Shown here one piece after another: positions 2,157 to 32,137 of a stretch of 64,000 nucleotides of DNA (position 1 is the first letter of the stretch; each line of letters starts with the position of its first letter). Location: NCBI RefSeq assembly GCF_057098645.1, contig NZ_CM169472.1. One strand, given 5' to 3'. The notes under the pieces are model-generated. The model saw only the letters and a list, made by a program, of their open reading frames with translations, was not told the DNA's origin and made no database searches. A program made the position numbers and the translations under genes.

Positions 2157-5061
<2,905 letters not shown>

Positions 5062-21654: not shown

Positions 21655-21800
21655 CTGGCGTAGGCCGGATAAGACGTTTACGCCGCATCCGGCAATTGTG
21701 CACCGATGCCTGATGCGACGCTGACGCGTCTTATCATGCCTACAAATCTGTACGCGAACCGTAGGCCGAATAATGCGTTCACGCCGCATCCGACCTGAAA
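21655..21800. repeat. REP/BIME palindromic units, cluster of about three
   Basis: gccggataagacgtttacgccgcatccggca, gcctgatgcgacgctgacgcgtcttatcatgcctaca and gccgaataatgcgttcacgccgcatccgac REP-type palindromes. Confidence 0.85.
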
Positions 21801-24454: not shown

Positions 24455-24811
24455 TTACATCTGGGCTGAAAACTCACGTTCTAAGACATCAACAATGAGC
24501 TGGTTTTTTGAAATGGAATGTTGTCTGGCGACGATGGTCAGCCGCGAATCAATGTGATGAGGAACACGAAGCGTCAGGCGTTTTTGCTCTTCTTCTTCAC
24601 GAAAAGGGGCAATACCGTCCTCTTCACAATCCGCCATCCACTCATCCAGCGCGCTTTCGCCCTCACGATATAATGCCTCAATGCTTGTGGCTACAAAGTC
24701 ACAATAACCGTTTACATTGAGGAATTTGCCGCGAAATGCATTGATATCGGCTTCAAATGTCACTGCGGCTGGTTGACCTTTAATTGTGATAATGTTCGAT
24801 GCTTTATTCAT
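24455..24811 (-). CDS. HicB-like antitoxin (N-terminal HicB fold, C-terminal ribbon-helix-helix)
   Basis: 118-aa ORF; C-terminus RLTLRVPHHIDSRLTIVARQHSISKNQLIVDVLEREF resembles an RHH DNA-binding domain; 8-nt overlap with the upstream ORF. Confidence 0.55.
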   Translation of the reverse strand: MNKASNIITIKGQPAAVTFEADINAFRGKFLNVNGYCDFVATSIEALYREGESALDEWMADCEEDGIAPFREEEEQKRLTLRVPHHIDSRLTIVARQHSISKNQLIVDVLEREFSAQM

Positions 24812-25103
24812 AATCTACCCCTACACAGTTAACAAACCACTCCTTAAGACCTGCTACTGCGCCTTTATCCATCACATTCTTTGGATGTGGCTCATGTGTA
24901 CTGAATTTGGTCGTTCCAATCTGAAATTTCCTTCTGGACCCATTGTTATTTTTTATTGTTCCACCCGCCGCTTTAATGAGCGCAACAACATCATCCCATT
25001 TAATTCCAGATTTTGGCGGCTCCGTCATTACATCGTCGAATGTTTTTCTATGGCGGGAGCCTAGCGCGCTGACCTTAATCATACTATCAATCCATGACAT
25101 CAT
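24804..25103 (-). CDS. HicA-like (YcfA family) putative mRNA-interferase toxin
   Basis: 99-aa ORF (true start may be internal; MTEPPKSG... gives 74 aa); GSRRKF...THEPHP...GLKEW resembles HicA; translationally coupled to the downstream ORF. Confidence 0.45.
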   Translation of the reverse strand: MMSWIDSMIKVSALGSRHRKTFDDVMTEPPKSGIKWDDVVALIKAAGGTIKNNNGSRRKFQIGTTKFSTHEPHPKNVMDKGAVAGLKEWFVNCVGVDYE

Positions 25104-25186
25104 TGTATGGTGTCATCGTAGTATGTTTGCAATGTGACGTCAATCAATGGTGTCAGATGCATGCAAAGCATGGAAAAGAATCCCCA

Positions 25187-26959
25187 TCAACTCACTGCCC
25201 CCATAATCTTCAACTCCAGCTCATCCGGCACTTCGTTATACGACAGCACATGCAGCCCCGGCGCAAACAACCTTGCATAGCGAGCCAGCAAAGGGCGCAG
25301 CTGCGGCGGCACCAGCAGTACCGGGTCTTTCCCCGCCGCTTTCATCTGCTCTTTTACCTGCGGCATCGTGCTCTGGAACTGGTTGAGCATATTCGGGTCG
25401 ACCGGCACGCTGTCGAGCATCACTTTGCCGCCCTGTTGCGCCTGATTCACCACGTTGGTCAGCAGATTTTCCAGCTCATTATTCAGCATATACACCGTAA
25501 GCTCCTGCTTGCGAACGAACGGATGGGTAATGCTGCGCCGCAGCGCCAGGCGTACATCGGCTGCCAGCAGAATGTGATCTTTAGTCACCGTGCTACTGGC
25601 GACCAGCACGGTGGCGATGGTGACGATATCGCGCAGGGAAACGCCTTCGGTCAGCAGCGCACGGTACACTTTCAGCAACTGGCTGTAATTCAGCGCCGCG
25701 CTCAAATCCTCCGCCAGGCGCGGTGCCATCGACGACAGGCGGTTATGCAACTGTGTGATGTCATCATAGTTAAACAAATCAGGAATATAGCTGCGCACAA
25801 TCTTGTTTACATGGGTGGCAATCACGCTGGCGCTGTCGATTACCTGATACCCCATATTCAGCGCCTTCGCTTTCTGCGCGGGCTGGATCCAGGTCACCGG
25901 CATCCCGTACGCCGGGTCGTTCCCCAGCACGCCGTCTATCTCGCCGTAGGTTTCGCTGGAGGGCAGGGCCATCAGTTTATCCGCCGGAATATCCGCTTCA
26001 TCGGCCTTAATGCCGTTGATGAAAATAGCGTACTGGCTGGGCTTGAGGCGGAAATTTTCCCGAATGCGGATCTCCGGCAGCAGCACGCCGTTGCCGTCAG
26101 AAATCACCTGCCTCACGCCGCGAATCCGCTGGGTGAGTGGGTTGCCCTGCGCTTTATCGACCAGCGCTACTAGCTTGTAGCCAAGGCTTAAACTGATAGG
26201 CTCGATAAGCGGAATGGTTTCCCAACTGACCTGTTGCTCGCTGGTTTCAGTGATAGTGCGGGTCAGCGTTTCGAGGCTTTTCTCTTCCGCCTCCGCCGCC
26301 TGCGGGCGTTTGCTCATCCGCCAGCCGGTAAAACCCAGTAGGGCGCTGAACAGCAAAAACGGCAGGTGCGGCATCCCCGGCACCACTGCCAGCACGAACA
26401 TGATCCCAGTGGCGGTGTAGAGTACCGTCGGGCTTGCCAGCAGCTGGTGGCGCACGTCATGGGCGATATCGCCGTTATCGCTGACGCGGGTGACGATTAT
26501 CGCCGCCGCGGTGGAGAGCAGGAGGGAAGGGATCTGCGCCACCAGGCCGTCGCCGATGGTCATCAGCACATACTGCTGGAAGGCGGCATCGGCGCTCAGG
26601 TTGTATTTGAAGATCCCGATACAGACGCCGCCGATCAGGTTGATCGCCAGAATCATCATCCCGGCGATGGCGTCCCCGCGCACAAACTTAGATGCCCCGT
26701 CCATTGCGCCGTAGAAATCGGCCTCGCTGGCAACATCTTTACGCCGGGTTTGCGCCTGCGCCTGGTTGATCAACCCGGCGTTAAGATCGGCGTCAATCGC
26801 CATCTGCTTGCCGGGCATCGCGTCCAGGGTAAAGCGGGCAGAAACCTCGGAAATACGCTCGGCCCCTTTGGTGACGACGATAAAGTTGATTGTCAACAGC
26901 GTCAGTAAATCCGAGCGCGAAAGTATTATTGCCGCGCTGCACGGGCAGTCGATTTTCAA
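25187..26959 (-). pseudogene. lfhA: FlhA-like lateral-flagellar (Flag-2) export gene remnant, N-terminally truncated
   Basis: 590-aa ORF matching FlhA from ...VVTKGAERISEVSARFTLDAMPGKQM onward; N-terminal transmembrane region missing. Confidence 0.8.
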
Positions 26960-27656
26960 CGGTGGCGGGTTGTCGCCGTTAAATAAAATCAGCCCGTCTC
27001 ATCCGCCAAAACCTGCCACCGTGGCGGTGCCGGAAGAGACGGAGAAAAAAGCGCGCGACGTCAATGAGAAAACGGCGCTGCTGAAGAAGAAATCCGCCAC
27101 CGAGCTTGGTGAGCTGGCAACCAGTATCAACACCATTGCCCGTGATGCGCATATGGAAGCGAATCTGGAGATGGAGATTGTCCCGCAGGGATTACGCGTG
27201 CTGATTAAAGACGACCAGAATCGCAATATGTTCGAACGCGGCAGCGCGCAGATTATGCCGTTCTTTAAAACGCTGCTGGTGGAGTTAGCGCCAGTGTTCG
27301 ACTCGCTCGATAATAAAATTATTATTACCGGGCATACCGATGCGATGGCCTACAAAAACAATATCTACAACAACTGGAACCTTTCGGGTGACCGCGCGCT
27401 TTCGGCTCGTCGGGTGCTGGAAGAGGCCGGAATGCCGGAAGATAAAGTGATGCAGGTAAGCGCAATGGCGGACCAGATGCTGCTGGATGCCAAAAATCCG
27501 CAAAGCGCGGGCAATCGGCGTATTGAGATTATGGTGCTGACCAAAAGTGCGTCCGATACGCTGTATCAATACTTTGGTCAGCATGGGGATAAAGTGGTGC
27601 AGCCGCTGGTGCAAAAGCTGGATAAGCAGCAGGTGCTTTCGCAGCGAATGCGCTAA
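26895..27656 (+). pseudogene. lafU: MotB/LafU-like lateral-flagellar motor gene remnant (C-terminal OmpA-like domain only)
   Basis: C-terminal part of the 296-aa ORF has MotB/OmpA-C features (IIITGHTDAMAY..., NRRIEIMV); N-terminal part of the ORF overlaps lfhA antisense and is not protein-like; start coordinate approximate. Confidence 0.7.
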
Positions 27657-27694
27657 ATGCTGAATCTTTACGCATTTCTCAAACCCTGAAATCA

Positions 27695-27710
27695 CTGTAT
27701 ACTTTACCAG
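27695..27710 (+). promoter_or_regulatory. LexA (SOS) box upstream of dinB
   Basis: ctgtatactttaccag fits CTGT-N8-ACAG, about 17 bp upstream of the dinB ATG. Confidence 0.8.
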
Positions 27711-27726
27711 TGTTGAGAGGTGAGCA

Positions 27727-28782
27727 ATGCGTAAAATCATTCATGTGGATATGGACTGCTTTTTCGCAGCGGTGGAGATGCGCGACAATCCCGCCCTGCG
27801 CGATATCCCTATTGCTATTGGCGGTAGCCGCGAACGTCGGGGGGTGATCAGCACCGCCAATTATCCCGCGCGTAAATTTGGCGTACGTAGCGCTATGCCG
27901 ACAGGGATGGCGCTCAAATTATGCCCACATCTCACCTTGCTTCCGGGGCGCTTTGACGCCTACAAAGAAGCCTCAAATCATATCCGTGAAATCTTCTCGC
28001 GCTACACCTCGCGTATTGAACCGTTGTCACTGGATGAGGCTTATCTCGATGTCACCGATAGCGTCCATTGCCACGGTTCTGCGACCCTCATCGCCCAGGA
28101 AATCCGCCAGACGATCTTCAACGAGCTGCAACTGACGGCATCTGCGGGCGTGGCACCAGTAAAGTTTCTCGCCAAAATCGCCTCCGACATGAATAAACCC
28201 AACGGCCAGTTTGTGATTACGCCGGCAGAAGTTCCGGCATTTTTACAAACCTTACCACTGGCAAAAATCCCCGGCGTCGGCAAAGTCTCGGCGGCAAAAC
28301 TGGAAGCGATGGGGCTGCGGACCTGCGGTGATGTACAAAAGTGTGATCTGGTGATACTGCTTAAACGCTTTGGCAAATTTGGCCGCATTTTGTGGGAGCG
28401 TAGTCAGGGGATTGACGAACGCGATGTTAACAGCGAACGGTTGCGAAAATCCGTCGGCGTGGAACGCACGATGGCGGAAGATATTCATCACTGGTCTGAA
28501 TGTGAGGCGATTATCGAGCGGCTGTATCCGGAACTTGAACGCCGTCTGGCAAAGGTGAAACCTGATTTACTGATTGCTCGCCAGGGGGTGAAATTAAAGT
28601 TCGACGATTTTCAGCAAACCACCCAGGAGCACGTCTGGCCGCGGCTGAATAAAGCTGATCTAATCGCCACCGCGCGTAAAACCTGGGATGAACGCCGCGG
28701 CGGGCGCGGTGTGCGACTGGTGGGGCTGCATGTGACGTTGCTGGATCCGCAAATGGAAAGACAACTGGTGCTGGGATTATGA
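27727..28782 (+). CDS. dinB: DNA polymerase IV (Y-family translesion polymerase)
   Basis: 351-aa ORF starting [33 protein letters not shown]. Confidence 0.95.
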
Positions 28783-29231
28783 ATAACATACAAATAAGAA
28801 ACTATCAGCCTGGCGATTTTCAGCAACTATGCGCTATTTTCATTAGAGCGGTTACGATGACCGCCAGTCAGCATTATTCACCACAACAAATTGCCGCCTG
28901 GGCGCAGATTGACGAATCTCGCTGGAAGGAGAAACTCGCGAAATCACAAGTGCGGGTTGCAGTCATTAATGCACAACCGGTTGGTTTTATTTCCCGCATT
29001 GAACATTATATCGATATGTTATTTGTTGACCCTGAATACACCCGCCGTGGGGTTGCCAGCGCTTTGTTAAAACCTTTGATTAAGTCTGAATCCGAACTTA
29101 CGGTGGACGCAAGCATAACCGCAAAACCCTTTTTTGAACGTTATGGTTTTCAGACAGTTAAGCAGCAGCGCGTTGAATGCCGGGGCGCGTGGTTTATTAA
29201 TTTTTATATGCGTTATAAACCGCAACATTAA
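28779..29231 (+). CDS. yafP: GNAT-family N-acetyltransferase
   Basis: 150-aa ORF; start overlaps the dinB stop (ATGA). Confidence 0.85.
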
Positions 29232-29536: not shown

Positions 29537-30067
29537 ATGGAATGGTACATGGGCAAATATATTCGTCCCTTATCCGATGCGGTATTTACCATCGCATCTG
29601 ATGACCTGTGGATCGAGAGTTTAGCGATCCAACAATTACACACCACGGCAAATTTACCCAACATGCAGCGCGTAGTGGGGATGCCAGATTTACACCCCGG
29701 ACGCGGCTACCCGATTGGCGCAGCGTTCTTCTCCGCAGGCCGTTTTTACCCAGCACTGGTCGGCAATGATATCGGCTGTGGCATGGCGCTATGGCAAACA
29801 GATATTCTCGCTCGCAAATACAACGCCGATAAGTTTGAAAAGCGATTATCAGCTTTGGATGACGTTGCTGAAGAAAGCTGGCTGGAGGAAAACCTGCCGT
29901 CAGCATTTGCACAGCATCCGTGGCGCAGCTCGCTTGGCTCTATCGGTGGCGGCAATCATTTCGCTGAACTGCAACAAGTTGATCAAATCATCAACGCTGA
30001 ACTGTTTGCACTGGCAGGTCTGGATGCGCAGCATCTGCAACTGCTGGTTCATAGCGGCTCGAGGGGG
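29537..30067 (+). pseudogene. RtcB-family RNA ligase (PrfH-coupled), 5' fragment interrupted by an IS element
   Basis: 187-aa ORF with RtcB-like motifs (GMPDLHPGRGYPIGAAF, GGGNHFAELQ, HSGSRG); reading frame broken by the insertion. Confidence 0.8.
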
Positions 30068-30094
30068 GGTGCCCCTATTAAGTTGTCAAGCATG

Positions 30095-31291
30095 TTATGA
30101 CGCCTGCGGGGTATAAAAAGTCCCGTCGCGCATCATGGCGAACAGAACGTCGCAGCGTCGTCTCGCCAGGGCGATAAGCGCCTGATTGTGTCGTTTTCCC
30201 TGACTCATTTTGCGGGTGTAGTAAGCCCTGGAGAGCGGATCCCTGAGCGCGGCGAAGGCCGACAGGAACAACGCCCGTTTGAGAGCTTTATTACCCCGTC
30301 GCGAGGGATGCTCACCGCGTATTGACGAGCCGGATCGCCGAGTTACCGGCGCAAGGCCAGCATAAGCAGCGAGATGTGCGGCAGAGGCGAAGGCGCGGCA
30401 GGCGACCTCGGTGAGGAGTCTGGCTGCGGTCCTGACACCGACTCCGGGCATACTGGTCAGGACCGGGTAAAGAGGGTGAGCAAGAACTCGCTGTTCTACC
30501 TCAAGCACCACCTCGTCTCTTTGCTTACGCAGCGTGATGAGCTGGAGTGCCAGACGTGGCAGTACTACGGCAGCGGCATTCGTGCCGGGAACGACGACGG
30601 TTTGTTCGGCCAGTGCCTGAGCTATGTCTGCTGCAAGGCGTTTACCCAGACGAGGCGCAAGTTTGCAGAGCTGGGCTGCCAGCTTCTTCTCACCCAGCGA
30701 AGCGAGTTTTTCTGGTGAGGGATATCGCTGGAGAAGATCGAGTACCGCCGGGTGATCAAGTCTCGGACCGAGAACGCGCTCCAGTGCCGGATGTATCTGG
30801 GTCAGAAGGCCGCGGATACGGTTGCTGGCCTGCGTTGTCTGTGCGGCAAGATCATCATCGAAGCCGCAGAGCATGGAGAGTTCGGCGATTTGCTCGTCAG
30901 CCAGTTTCAGCGTGCGTAGCGCGTGAGGCAGGGTACGGGCAGCTTCGGCAATGATGGCAGCGTCACGAGCATCAGTTTTAGCTTCACCGGCGTGTAAGTC
31001 GGCTATGCGGCGCATGGCCAGTCCAGGGAGGTATCCGACAAGGACTCCTTCTGAGCGGGCAACGGCGACAGGTAACGCACCGATGGTAGCTGGCTGATCA
31101 ACAACCAGCAGTATCTGACCATGTTGTTTCAGGTCAGATATTAGCGACCTGAGTTTGTTTTCGTCGTTGGGTAATGCTTTATCGAACAGGCGTTTACCTG
31201 AACGATTAATGGCTACAGCGTGATGCGTATCTTTACCGACATCAACGCCGATAAAGACCTGGACGGATTCGTAATCGCTGGATTCGGTCAT
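30095..31291 (-). CDS. IS110-family DEDD transposase/recombinase
   Basis: N-terminal IGVDVGKDTHHAV (RuvC-like DEDD) and C-terminal MPGVGVRTAARLL...AYAGLAPVTRRSGSS...GNKALKRAL motifs. Confidence 0.88.
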   Translation of the reverse strand: MTESSDYESVQVFIGVDVGKDTHHAVAINRSGKRLFDKALPNDENKLRSLISDLKQHGQILLVVDQPATIGALPVAVARSEGVLVGYLPGLAMRRIADLHAGEAKTDARDAAIIAEAARTLPHALRTLKLADEQIAELSMLCGFDDDLAAQTTQASNRIRGLLTQIHPALERVLGPRLDHPAVLDLLQRYPSPEKLASLGEKKLAAQLCKLAPRLGKRLAADIAQALAEQTVVVPGTNAAAVVLPRLALQLITLRKQRDEVVLEVEQRVLAHPLYPVLTSMPGVGVRTAARLLTEVACRAFASAAHLAAYAGLAPVTRRSGSSIRGEHPSRRGNKALKRALFLSAFAALRDPLSRAYYTRKMSQGKRHNQALIALARRRCDVLFAMMRDGTFYTPQAS

Positions 31292-31517
31292 TCTGTCTCC
31301 CTTGTATATGGGTTAACCAGATAACCACGGGGAGCAGGTACCGGCATCCACGTTACAGACGGTCCCGGCAAAAGTGCCTGACCTGACCCCTATTAGCGGT
31401 TACCAGCGCCCCACCAGACCCGGTGACATCACCCCCCGGATCATGGACGACTGGGGGCAGTAATCATGCCGGGTCTGGCTGGCTAACACCCCATTATAAG
31501 GGGTACGAATAAAGTAA
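31292..31517 (-). ncRNA. candidate IS110-type bridge (guide) RNA in the element's 5' non-coding arm
   Basis: ORF-free, about 225 nt; perfect 10-bp inverted repeat ccagacccgg/ccgggtctgg (31414-31423 and 31469-31478); 8- and 9-nt exact matches to the target flank and the element terminus. Confidence 0.4.
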
Positions 31518-32137
31518 CGGGGCAGTCTATTTTACAGCGGCATATTGCCTCGTTTTCGCATCATGGTTTGCCTGAAGGCAGTGACGATGCGCTACGGTAC
31601 ATTGCGGAACATGACGATGCGCTGGCATTTGCGCGTATTAATAGCCAGATGATCGCTTTGCGCATAATGCAACAGGTTAAGGCCACGGGAAGTCCGGTTC
31701 TGGATGTGGCGCATAACTTTGTTAGCGCGTGTCAAATCGGCGATCAACAGGGCTGGTTGCATCGTAAAGGTGCCACGCCGGATGACAACGGTCTGGTGAT
31801 TATTCCCGGTTCACGCGGTGATTACTCCTGGCTTGTACAGCCTGTTGCGAACGAAAAAACGCTCCACTCGCTGGCGCATGGGGCAGGGCGTAAATGGGGG
31901 CGCACCGAGTGTAAAGGGCGTCTGGCAGCGAAATACACGGCGACGCAACTCTCGCGTACTGAACTTGGCAGTCGGGTAATTTGTCGCGATAAACAACTCA
32001 TCTTTGAAGAAGCGCCACAAGCCTATAAATCGGCTGAAAGCGTGGTGCAATGTCTGGTGCAGGCCGGATTAATTATTCCTGTCGCGCGGCTGCGTCCGGT
32101 GCTAACGCTCAAAAACAGTGGAGGGAAAAAAGGATGA
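31518..32137 (+). pseudogene. RtcB-family RNA ligase (PrfH-coupled), 3' fragment
   Basis: Frame resumes ...GQSILQRHIASFSHHGLPEGSDDALRY...; ends 3 bp after the prfH start. Confidence 0.8.

What the first reader, a model, noticed from the sequence alone, without database searches (positions are those of the whole stretch)
26860..26910. Flag-2 lateral flagellar cluster reduced to a two-gene scar
The FlhA-like gene lacks its N-terminal membrane region and the MotB-like gene retains only its C-terminal OmpA-like domain. They lie convergently with their truncated ends abutting at about 26880-26900, consistent with one deletion having removed the intervening lateral-flagellar genes.
Basis: partly seen in the sequence, partly recalled or inferred. 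Interest (0 to 1): 0.4.

Follow-up and report, generated by a model that had tools for sequence, protein, structure and literature searches.

The report
Known Flag-2 flagellar deletion scar
This is the already described scar that most E. coli carry where a 35-kb second flagellar gene cluster was lost, leaving two beheaded genes back to back. It is ordinary in itself, but the same junction recurs on unrelated E. coli backgrounds and in other genera, and I could not explain that.

Summary
Window 25187-26890 (minus strand) is a 5'-truncated lfhA (FlhA/FHIPEP family), and 26888-27656 (plus strand) is a 5'-truncated lafU (MotB-like). The two meet at a shared GAT (26888-26890).

Alignment to intact Flag-2 loci shows one clean gap of 35.1-38.1 kb. 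It removes LfhA residues 1-130, LafU residues 1-51 and 40 whole genes.

LfhA also keeps half of its membrane domain.

This is the published fhiA-mbhA scar of E. coli K-12 (Ren 2005; De Maayer 2020). It is present in 4071 of 5426 complete E. coli genomes.

One result is unexplained. The junction has only 3 bp of microhomology, which is unremarkable. Even so, a precise in-silico deletion of four intact genomes that differ by 3-7% gives sequences 100% identical to real scars.

The same junction also occurs with native flanks and open reading frames in one Citrobacter and one Kluyvera genome (dN/dS 0.02-0.045). Either the junction is regenerated repeatedly, or recombination refreshes the flanks right up to the junction.

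The parts
25187..26890 (-). lfhA' remnant. It encodes LfhA residues 131-697 (FHIPEP loop, TM5-8, linker, cytoplasmic domain). It has lost its promoter, its start codon and codons 1-130.
   Evidence: Pfam FHIPEP E=6e-189 over profile 99-656/657. TIGR01398 FlhA scores 595 bits, below its 772 cutoff, and starts at profile position 115. PGAP calls it a pseudogene 'missing N-terminus'. It is collinear with A41 lfhA up to L002 position 2414. Hydropathy.
26885..26899 (.). Hybrid copy of an imperfect 15-bp direct repeat. Intact loci carry GTTGATGATCATCAG in lfhA and GTGGATTGTCAACAG in lafU (11 of 15 identical). Both flanks align to the window over these 15 bases.
   Evidence: Overlap of the two BLAST blocks and the three-way alignment.
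26888..26890 (.). Deletion junction: the only exact microhomology (GAT) shared by the two breakpoints.
   Evidence: Three-way alignment of the window, the A41 lfhA side and the A41 lafU side.
26888..27656 (+). 'lafU remnant. It encodes LafU residues 52/53-307 (periplasmic linker plus OmpA-like peptidoglycan-binding domain). It has lost its promoter, its start codon, its cytoplasmic N-terminus and its TM helix.
   Evidence: Pfam OmpA E=1.3e-14. NCBIfam NF005273 LafU scores 478 bits over profile 42-297 of 297, whereas intact A41 LafU covers 1-297. Collinear with A41 lafU from L002 position 37496.
26871..27656 (+). The CDS that PGAP calls 'lafU' (261 aa). It is a chimeric ORF: its GTG start and first codons lie in antisense lfhA sequence.
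   Evidence: Annotation of the identical genome RM9872, L001 7872-8657, offset +18999. The GTG is absent in the Kluyvera scar, which reads GGTCAC.
24455..25103 (-). Left boundary context: hicB/hicA toxin-antitoxin pair next to the 3' end of lfhA'. Some other strains have rayT in this position.
27727..28782 (+). Right boundary context: dinB, immediately downstream of lafU, as in intact loci.

Best explanation
The window, which matches E. coli O145 RM9872, carries the canonical Flag-2 deletion scar, lfhA'-'lafU (called fhiA-mbhA in K-12). Flag-2 is a cluster of about 42 genes for a lateral-type flagellum that sits between yafL/hicAB and dinB. Its two outermost genes, lfhA and lafU, are transcribed outward. 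One deletion of about 35 kb joined codon 131 of lfhA to codon 52/53 of lafU at a 3-bp GAT. It removed every gene in between, both promoters, both start codons and the first membrane segments of both proteins. Shown: the anatomy, the breakpoints, the size of the gap and the identity with the published scar. Inferred: the two remnants are inert leftovers with no flagellar function, because neither has its own 5' end and the rest of the machine is gone. Also inferred: the break itself was an illegitimate (non-homologous) joining event.
For: The window aligns to an intact locus as two collinear blocks separated by one 35,084-bp gap. The gap is 35,582, 38,137 and 37,210 bp in three other intact genomes. 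Domain searches show both proteins lack the N-terminal part of their family profiles. PGAP annotation of the identical genome agrees. An intact A41 locus shows the 40 missing genes. In 4071 of 5426 complete E. coli genomes a single place covers at least 80% of a query spanning the junction; every such hit that I inspected aligned in one piece across it, apart from WB61 and one genome with an IS4-family insertion. About 1290-1301 genomes keep the interior. Published descriptions match (PMC6993521; PMC3032704; PMC11420993). Decay is seen in some scars: a stop codon (Q534*) in E2348/69 and a frameshift in the E. albertii type strain.
Against: The remnants do not look like old pseudogenes. All 8 E. 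coli scar alleles examined are free of indels. Seven of the 8 have an open lfhA' frame, and dN/dS is 0.027 among scars against 0.029 among intact genes. The window's own private substitutions are 15 synonymous to 3 non-synonymous. PGAP treats lafU as an intact CDS. A weak sigma-70-like site lies upstream of lfhA' on the minus strand at 26952-26925. The 3-bp microhomology is no better than hundreds of alternatives, so the joining mechanism is not established.
Confidence: 0.9

Rival explanations
1. Origin model A. The canonical junction is not one ancient accident. It is produced repeatedly by a precise, sequence-directed excision of the Flag-2 block, or by short-patch recombination templated on scar DNA from other cells. 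On this model the scar in this window is a relatively recent, independent loss from an intact allele of its own haplotype.
For: Deleting Flag-2 precisely in silico from four intact genomes that differ by 3-7% gives sequences 100% identical to real scars: K-12-like vs CM2010 and Z0117 vs AZ159, 0 differences in 1894+1113 nt; A41 and muskdeer13-4, 2000/2000 and 1990/1990 nt, at least 6 genomes each. A41 and its scar twin AMSHJX01 show no difference for 5.86 kb to the left and 2.6 kb to the right of the junction, and 1 mismatch plus 1 gap in 12 kb on the right. Haplotype-specific SNPs at 11 to 40 bp from the junction follow the matching intact allele. No SNP is specific to scars. The same junction occurs with native flanks (78-82% identical to E. 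coli) and open frames in Citrobacter sp. MGH106 and Kluyvera ascorbata, with dS above 1 and dN/dS of 0.02-0.045. De Maayer et al. report that lfhA/lafU fragments occur mainly in taxa that also have intact loci.
Against: No mechanism is visible. No recombinase is annotated in the A41 cluster. The shared core is only 3 bp, and 450 other 15-mer pairs between lfhA and lafU match as well or better. The one alternative junction found (WB61) uses a 7-bp microhomology and is unique among 5426 genomes, so ordinary deletions here are rare and varied. No intact twin exists among complete genomes for the window's own haplotype or for the phylogroup B2 haplotype. Mosaic scars (23CRST010, DE17) show that scars also move by homologous recombination.
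Confidence: 0.5
2. Origin model B. The deletion happened once, or very few times, long ago. Presence and absence have coexisted since then. Homologous recombination with intact alleles keeps overwriting the scar's flanks right up to the edge of the heterology, which erases linkage and prevents decay. The junction reached or persisted in Citrobacter, Kluyvera and E. albertii as an old shared polymorphism or by rare transfer between genera.
For: One junction accounts for all but one of the deletion junctions that I resolved, among roughly 4070-4085 Flag-2-negative genomes. This is what a single origin with an unremarkable 3-bp microhomology predicts. The locus is unusually diverse (dS about 0.22 among E. 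coli alleles), which indicates old alleles and much recombination. Mosaic scars with donor-type SNPs concentrated near the junction exist. Flag-2 is carried by about a quarter of strains in both E. coli and E. albertii.
Against: It needs exchange points within 11-40 bp of the junction on both sides in at least four lineages. That is shorter than the usual minimum homology for RecA-dependent exchange (my own knowledge, not tested here). The A41/AMSHJX01 pair is near-clonal for more than 12 kb with no trace of a donor tract. Among the three genera, 11 of the 12 substitutions in the 8-9 codons next to the junction on either side are synonymous. The model also needs a presence/absence polymorphism that lasts across genera, or transfer at about 80% identity.
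Confidence: 0.35
3. The two remnants are not dead. LfhA' (residues 131-697) and/or LafU' (periplasmic OmpA-like part) have been kept as working genes, and selection for them explains the open frames and the fixed junction.
For: Frames are open and dN/dS is low in E. coli, Citrobacter and Kluyvera. PGAP calls lafU as a CDS scoring above the NCBIfam cutoff. Both ORFs read through the junction, giving 590 aa and 296 aa. Promoter-like hits in the region number 4, against 1.3 expected by chance.
Against: There is a nonsense mutation in E2348/69 and a frameshift in the E. albertii type strain. The GTG start that PGAP uses is not conserved in Kluyvera. According to De Maayer et al., scars are found mainly in taxa that still have intact loci. 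The low dN/dS is equally explained by the scars being identical to intact alleles. Function would still not explain the perfect twins.
Confidence: 0.07

Closest known systems
fhiA-mbhA (lfhA/lafU pseudogene) scar of E. coli K-12, O157:H7 and most other E. coli. Ren et al. 2005, J Bacteriol 187:1430, as reported in PMC6993521, PMC3032704 and PMC11420993.
   Same: Same chromosomal site (upstream of dinB), same two truncated genes and same junction. A K-12-like genome aligns in one piece across the junction, with the same 1719-bp and 786-bp annotated remnants.
   Different: The window's allele differs by 4-7% from the other scar alleles sampled. It has hicAB instead of rayT on the left, and dinB-yafP without yafNO on the right.
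Intact Flag-2 locus (E. coli 042, W, ATCC 8739 and A41), homologous to the lateral flagellar (laf) system of Vibrio parahaemolyticus and Aeromonas hydrophila.
   Same: The remnants are the 3' parts of its two terminal genes, with 94-97% nucleotide identity to A41.
   Different: The 40 internal genes and the 5' parts of lfhA and lafU are absent, 35.1-38.1 kb in total.
Microhomology-mediated large deletions, such as the WB61 Flag-2 deletion found here or the ETT2 eivJICAEGF deletion between small direct repeats (mentioned in PMC5422975).
   Same: One copy of a short direct repeat is left at the junction and there is no mobile-element footprint.
   Different: WB61 uses a 7-bp exact repeat and is a singleton. 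The canonical junction has 3 bp, yet it is found on many haplotypes and in three genera.
Precisely excisable genomic islands, which are bounded by att or dif-like repeats and excised by integrases or XerCD.
   Same: All-or-none presence and an identical 'empty site'. Flanks are unchanged between the occupied and empty states in near-clonal pairs.
   Different: No recombinase gene is annotated in the block and no identical core of 6-8 bp is present. The boundaries lie inside two structural genes.

Membership tests
Canonical Flag-2 deletion scar (lfhA'-'lafU) | Located between yafL (with or without hicAB or rayT) and dinB | tested here: met
   Gene order yafJ, dpaA, yafL-like C40 peptidase, hicBA, lfhA', 'lafU, dinB, yafP.
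Canonical Flag-2 deletion scar (lfhA'-'lafU) | 5'-truncated lfhA and 5'-truncated lafU, divergent, with nothing between them | tested here: met
   The breakpoints are at LfhA codon 131 and LafU codon 52/53.
Canonical Flag-2 deletion scar (lfhA'-'lafU) | Same junction sequence as in K-12, O157:H7 and other scar strains | tested here: met
   In 4071 of 5426 genomes one place covers at least 80% of a junction-spanning query. Eight scar alleles were compared base by base.
FlhA / FHIPEP export-gate family (for lfhA') | Full-length match to the family profile, including the N-terminal TM segments | tested here: not met
   Pfam match covers profile positions 99-656 of 657 only. TIGR01398 scores 595 bits, below its 772 cutoff. 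It is a fragment of a family member, not a complete one.
MotB/LafU stator family (for 'lafU) | N-terminal TM helix with the conserved aspartate, plus the C-terminal OmpA-like domain | tested here: not met
   The OmpA domain is present. The TM helix (residues 35-53, FADF motif) is deleted. The NF005273 match starts at profile position 42.
Microhomology-mediated illegitimate deletion | A short direct repeat at both breakpoints in the intact allele, with one copy retained, and better than chance | tested here: inconclusive
   The repeat is present (3 bp exact, 11 of 15 imperfect) but is not exceptional. There are 450 equally good 15-mer pairs and 522 exact repeats of 6 bp or more between the two genes.
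Site-specifically excisable island | A cognate recombinase gene and an identical crossover core in both boundary sites | tested here: not met
   No integrase or recombinase is annotated among the 42 genes of the A41 locus. The core identity is only GAT. A recombinase encoded elsewhere in the genome was not tested.
Site-specifically excisable island | Occupied and empty sites differ only by the element, in several independent backgrounds | tested here: met
   Four of four intact haplotypes have perfect scar twins.

The most novel reading that the evidence does not exclude
Flag-2 may behave as a precisely excisable block. On this reading the canonical lfhA'/'lafU junction is regenerated again and again, in at least four E. 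coli lineages and separately in Citrobacter and Kluyvera. The cause would be a sequence-directed excision, or a scar-templated short-patch recombination, that needs no recognisable recombinase and almost no microhomology. The 'scar' would then be a recurrent, young state rather than one ancient accident, which would also explain why its gene remnants never look decayed.
Probability: 0.45. Interest if true: 0.7.

Novelty: already known. Interest (0 to 1): 0.35.

Why it matters
As a finding it only re-identifies a textbook E. coli pseudogene pair and corrects its geometry.

What could matter is the population pattern around it:
- A 35-kb cluster is either wholly present or replaced by one exact junction.
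- That junction sits on flanks that are base-for-base those of intact relatives.
- The same junction is seen in three genera.

If this reflects a dedicated or templated precise excision, it would be a new way for bacteria to shed a costly organelle cluster cleanly. If it reflects recombination tracts that stop exactly at the edge of a deletion, it is a clean natural example of how recombination can keep 'dead' gene fragments looking alive. That would mislead dating of pseudogenes and inference of selection from dN/dS.

Tried and rejected
- Ren et al. 2005 (PMC545627) is not held, so their exact statement about the direct repeats is taken second-hand from PMC6993521.
- Searches for an intact allele matching the window's own haplotype, and the B2 (E2348/69) haplotype, used chimeric queries. 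The best intact matches were only 96.9% identical, so there is no twin for these two among complete genomes.
It returned almost only distant aquatic flhA genes, plus one more Kluyvera scar (L051, 98.8% identical to K. ascorbata) and one distant intact lfhA (L093). It therefore gave no test of twins outside Escherichia.
- I looked for a jump in divergence exactly at the virtual breakpoint in 7 intact alleles. In CM2010 the change lies about 140-340 bp inside the deleted part, not at the border. The sample is too small to decide.
- The promoter and terminator scan gave only weak consensus hits.
- I compared the junction by eye with E. coli dif, with integron core sites and with invertase sites. 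I saw no convincing resemblance. This was not a tool result.
- The idea that the remnants are functional was considered and rated low, for the reasons given under the rival explanations.
- The idea that the microhomology explains the site was rejected on the counts.

Full report
**What is in the window.** ORF listing and domain searches show two ORFs. A 590-codon ORF on the minus strand (25187-26959) matches Pfam FHIPEP at E=6e-189, but only from profile position 99. A 296-codon ORF on the plus strand (26766-27656) has a C-terminal OmpA domain. NCBIfam gives the same picture. The FlhA equivalog model is matched from position 115 and scores below its cutoff. The LafU model is matched from position 42 of 297, whereas an intact LafU covers 1-297. 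The region 25000-27800 is 100% identical to E. coli O145 str. RM9872. There PGAP annotates 'flagellar biosynthesis protein FlhA, incomplete, missing N-terminus' next to 'lafU', flanked by hicBA on one side and dinB on the other.

**Mapping the deletion.** E. coli A41 carries an intact Flag-2 locus of 42 genes, from lfhA (697 aa) to lafU (307 aa), in the same position between hicA and dinB. The window aligns to it as two collinear blocks: 24477-26899 matches L002 1-2423, and 26885-29433 matches L002 37493-40039. The blocks overlap by 15 bases (26885-26899). This is because the intact locus has an imperfect direct repeat, GTTGATGATCATCAG in lfhA and GTGGATTGTCAACAG in lafU (11 of 15 identical). 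The only exact shared bases are GAT at 26888-26890. The missing segment is 35,084 bp relative to A41, and 35,582, 38,137 and 37,210 bp relative to three other intact genomes.

LfhA loses residues 1-130. By hydropathy that removes the first strongly hydrophobic stretch and nearly all of the one at 118-136; read against the known FlhA topology, TM1-TM3 and nearly all of TM4 are lost. LafU loses residues 1-51, its only TM helix with the FADF aspartate. Because lfhA is on the minus strand and lafU on the plus strand, the truncated 5' ends face each other. The CDS that PGAP calls lafU (26871-27656) starts at a GTG inside antisense lfhA sequence, so it is chimeric.

**Is it known?** Yes. De Maayer et al. 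2020 summarise Ren et al. 2005. [quoted passage not shown] The same 'uniform' two-gene site is described for E. albertii, EDL933 and MG1655. [quoted passage not shown]

My census of complete genomes agrees with this. In 4071 of 5426 a single place covers at least 80% of a query spanning the junction, and 1290-1301 keep the sequence just inside either breakpoint.

**The scar does not look like an old pseudogene.** I compared eight scar alleles from different lineages with seven intact alleles.
- There are no indels in 1.7 kb of lfhA' or in 0.77 kb of 'lafU.
- Only E2348/69 has a stop codon, Q534*.
- Scar alleles differ from each other by 4-7% (dS about 0.22), but dN/dS is 0.027 among scars and 0.029 among intact genes.
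- The window's own allele has 15 synonymous and 3 non-synonymous private changes.
- No SNP is specific to scars. SNPs as close as 11, 33, 38 and 40 bp to the junction are shared between individual scars and individual intact alleles.

**Perfect twins.**
- The K-12-like scar is identical to the intact strain CM2010 over 1894 nt to the left and 1113 nt to the right of the junction.
- Scar Z0117 is likewise identical to intact AZ159. Yet the two pairs differ from each other by about 5.7%.
- I then deleted Flag-2 in silico, exactly at the GAT, from intact A41 and from intact muskdeer13-4. Searching these 2-kb constructs found real scars at 100.0% identity over the full length in at least six genomes each.
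- A41 and one such twin (AMSHJX01) have no difference for 5.86 kb on the left and 2.6 kb on the right. Over 12 kb on the right there is just one mismatch and one 1-nt gap.

So four of four tested intact haplotypes have an exact scar counterpart. Other scars (23CRST010, DE17) are mosaics, with differences concentrated near the junction or on one flank. That is the expected trace of a scar imported by homologous recombination. The window's haplotype and the B2 haplotype have no intact twin among complete genomes.

**Other genera.** I made a codon-degenerate pattern across the junction and scanned one genome per species. It hit E. coli, E. albertii, two contigs labelled as Clostridiales and Collinsella MAGs that are about 95% identical to the window (so E. 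coli-like DNA), Citrobacter sp. MGH106 and Kluyvera ascorbata ATCC 33433. The Citrobacter and Kluyvera loci are 78-82% identical to the window and lie in the same gene context. Both begin LfhA' at I131 and LafU' at I53. Both remnants are fully open in Citrobacter. In Kluyvera lfhA' is fully open, and 'lafU is open to the end of the contig, which cuts it short. Between genera dS exceeds 1, yet dN/dS is 0.02-0.045. Eleven of the twelve substitutions in the 8-9 codons flanking the junction on either side are synonymous. A second Kluyvera scar came from a metagenome. The E. albertii type strain has the same junction but a frameshifted lfhA'.

**The microhomology does not explain this.** Between lfhA and lafU of A41 there are 450 pairs of 15-mers matching at 11 or more positions. 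There are 64 matching at 12 or more, and exact direct repeats of up to 11 bp. The one alternative junction I found (strain WB61) uses a 7-bp exact repeat (CCGGGCA) and deletes 35,082 bp. It is unique among 5426 genomes. Ordinary illegitimate deletions here are therefore rare and use better repeats. The canonical junction accounts for all but one of the deletion junctions that I resolved.

**Interpretation.** The identity of the feature is secure: it is the canonical Flag-2 scar, one deletion relative to the intact locus, and already described. How the junction came to sit on so many backgrounds is not settled by my data. I considered three models.

- Model A holds that the junction is regenerated repeatedly, by a site-directed excision or by short-patch recombination templated on scar DNA. 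It explains the twins, the lack of decay, the absence of scar-specific SNPs and the occurrence in other genera. It has no visible mechanism: no recombinase is annotated in the cluster and the shared core is 3 bp.
- Model B holds that there was a single origin, followed by pervasive recombination whose tracts end exactly at the heterology border. It uses only known processes and fits the near-monopoly of one junction. However, it needs exchanges within 11-40 bp of the junction in several lineages. It must also account for a near-clonal twin pair with no donor tract, and for a polymorphism shared across genera.
- A third idea, that the remnants are functional, is weak. There is a stop codon and a frameshift in two lineages, and the PGAP start codon is not conserved. 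By De Maayer's account, scars occur mainly in taxa that still have intact loci.

I rate A at about 0.5, B at about 0.35 and function at under 0.1.

**Verdict.** The errors are the orientation and the extent of each truncation. The feature is already known and of low novelty. The residual interest lies in the unexplained recurrence of one exact junction, which a population-scale analysis or a simple PCR experiment could resolve.

Noticed in passing
window 30095-31291 (minus strand), with flanking fragments at about 29549-30070 and 31516-32137: An IS110-family element (PGAP: ISEc20 family transposase, 398 aa) is inserted in the RtcB-family RNA ligase gene upstream of prfH, splitting it into two pseudogene halves. 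The gene is intact in strain A41.
   Followed up: partly
window 24455-25103: A hicB/hicA toxin-antitoxin pair lies next to the 3' end of lfhA'. O157:H7 Z903, CM2010 and AZ159 have the REP-associated transposase gene rayT at the equivalent place, so the left border of Flag-2 is itself variable.
   Followed up: partly
window 27727-29231: dinB is followed directly by yafP. The yafN-yafO toxin-antitoxin pair found between them in CM2010 and WB61 is absent here, as it is in A41.
   Followed up: no
window 21660-21800: REP-like repeats here have several 78-97% matches in intergenic regions inside the intact Flag-2 cluster of A41 (L002 7120-7202, 14206-14277, 21089-21124, 23117-23153, 26149-26240, 31948-31984).
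   Followed up: no
window 25187-27656 and the homologous loci L002-L022: Allelic diversity at this locus is very high for E. coli: synonymous divergence is about 0.22 among lfhA alleles and 1-7% nucleotide differences among lafU alleles. A few sharply distinct haplotype classes are shared by Flag-2-positive and Flag-2-negative strains.
   Followed up: partly
L023 (E. coli WB61) 2495-2510: This is a second, independent Flag-2 deletion with different endpoints (lfhA' 1632 bp, 'lafU 846 bp). It is joined at a 7-bp microhomology, CCGGGCA, and is found in only this one of 5426 genomes.
   Followed up: yes
window 26443 and 27275: Two Chi sequences (GCTGGTGG, plus strand) lie about 440 bp to the left and 385 bp to the right of the junction. 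Differences in two scar/intact pairs begin at +383 to +385, at the right-hand Chi.
   Followed up: no
window 26885-26897: The junction creates a short palindrome, GTTGA-TTG-TCAAC. The likely reason is that the two divergent genes encode similar peptides at the breakpoints (LfhA IINFIVV, LafU IVNSV). The lfhA-side breakpoint also lies in a perfect 10-bp palindrome, GATGATCATC, which contains a GATC site.
   Followed up: no
L026 and L027: Contigs labelled as Clostridiales and Collinsella MAGs carry the E. coli scar at about 95% identity to the window. They are most likely E. coli contigs that were binned into the wrong genomes.
   Followed up: partly
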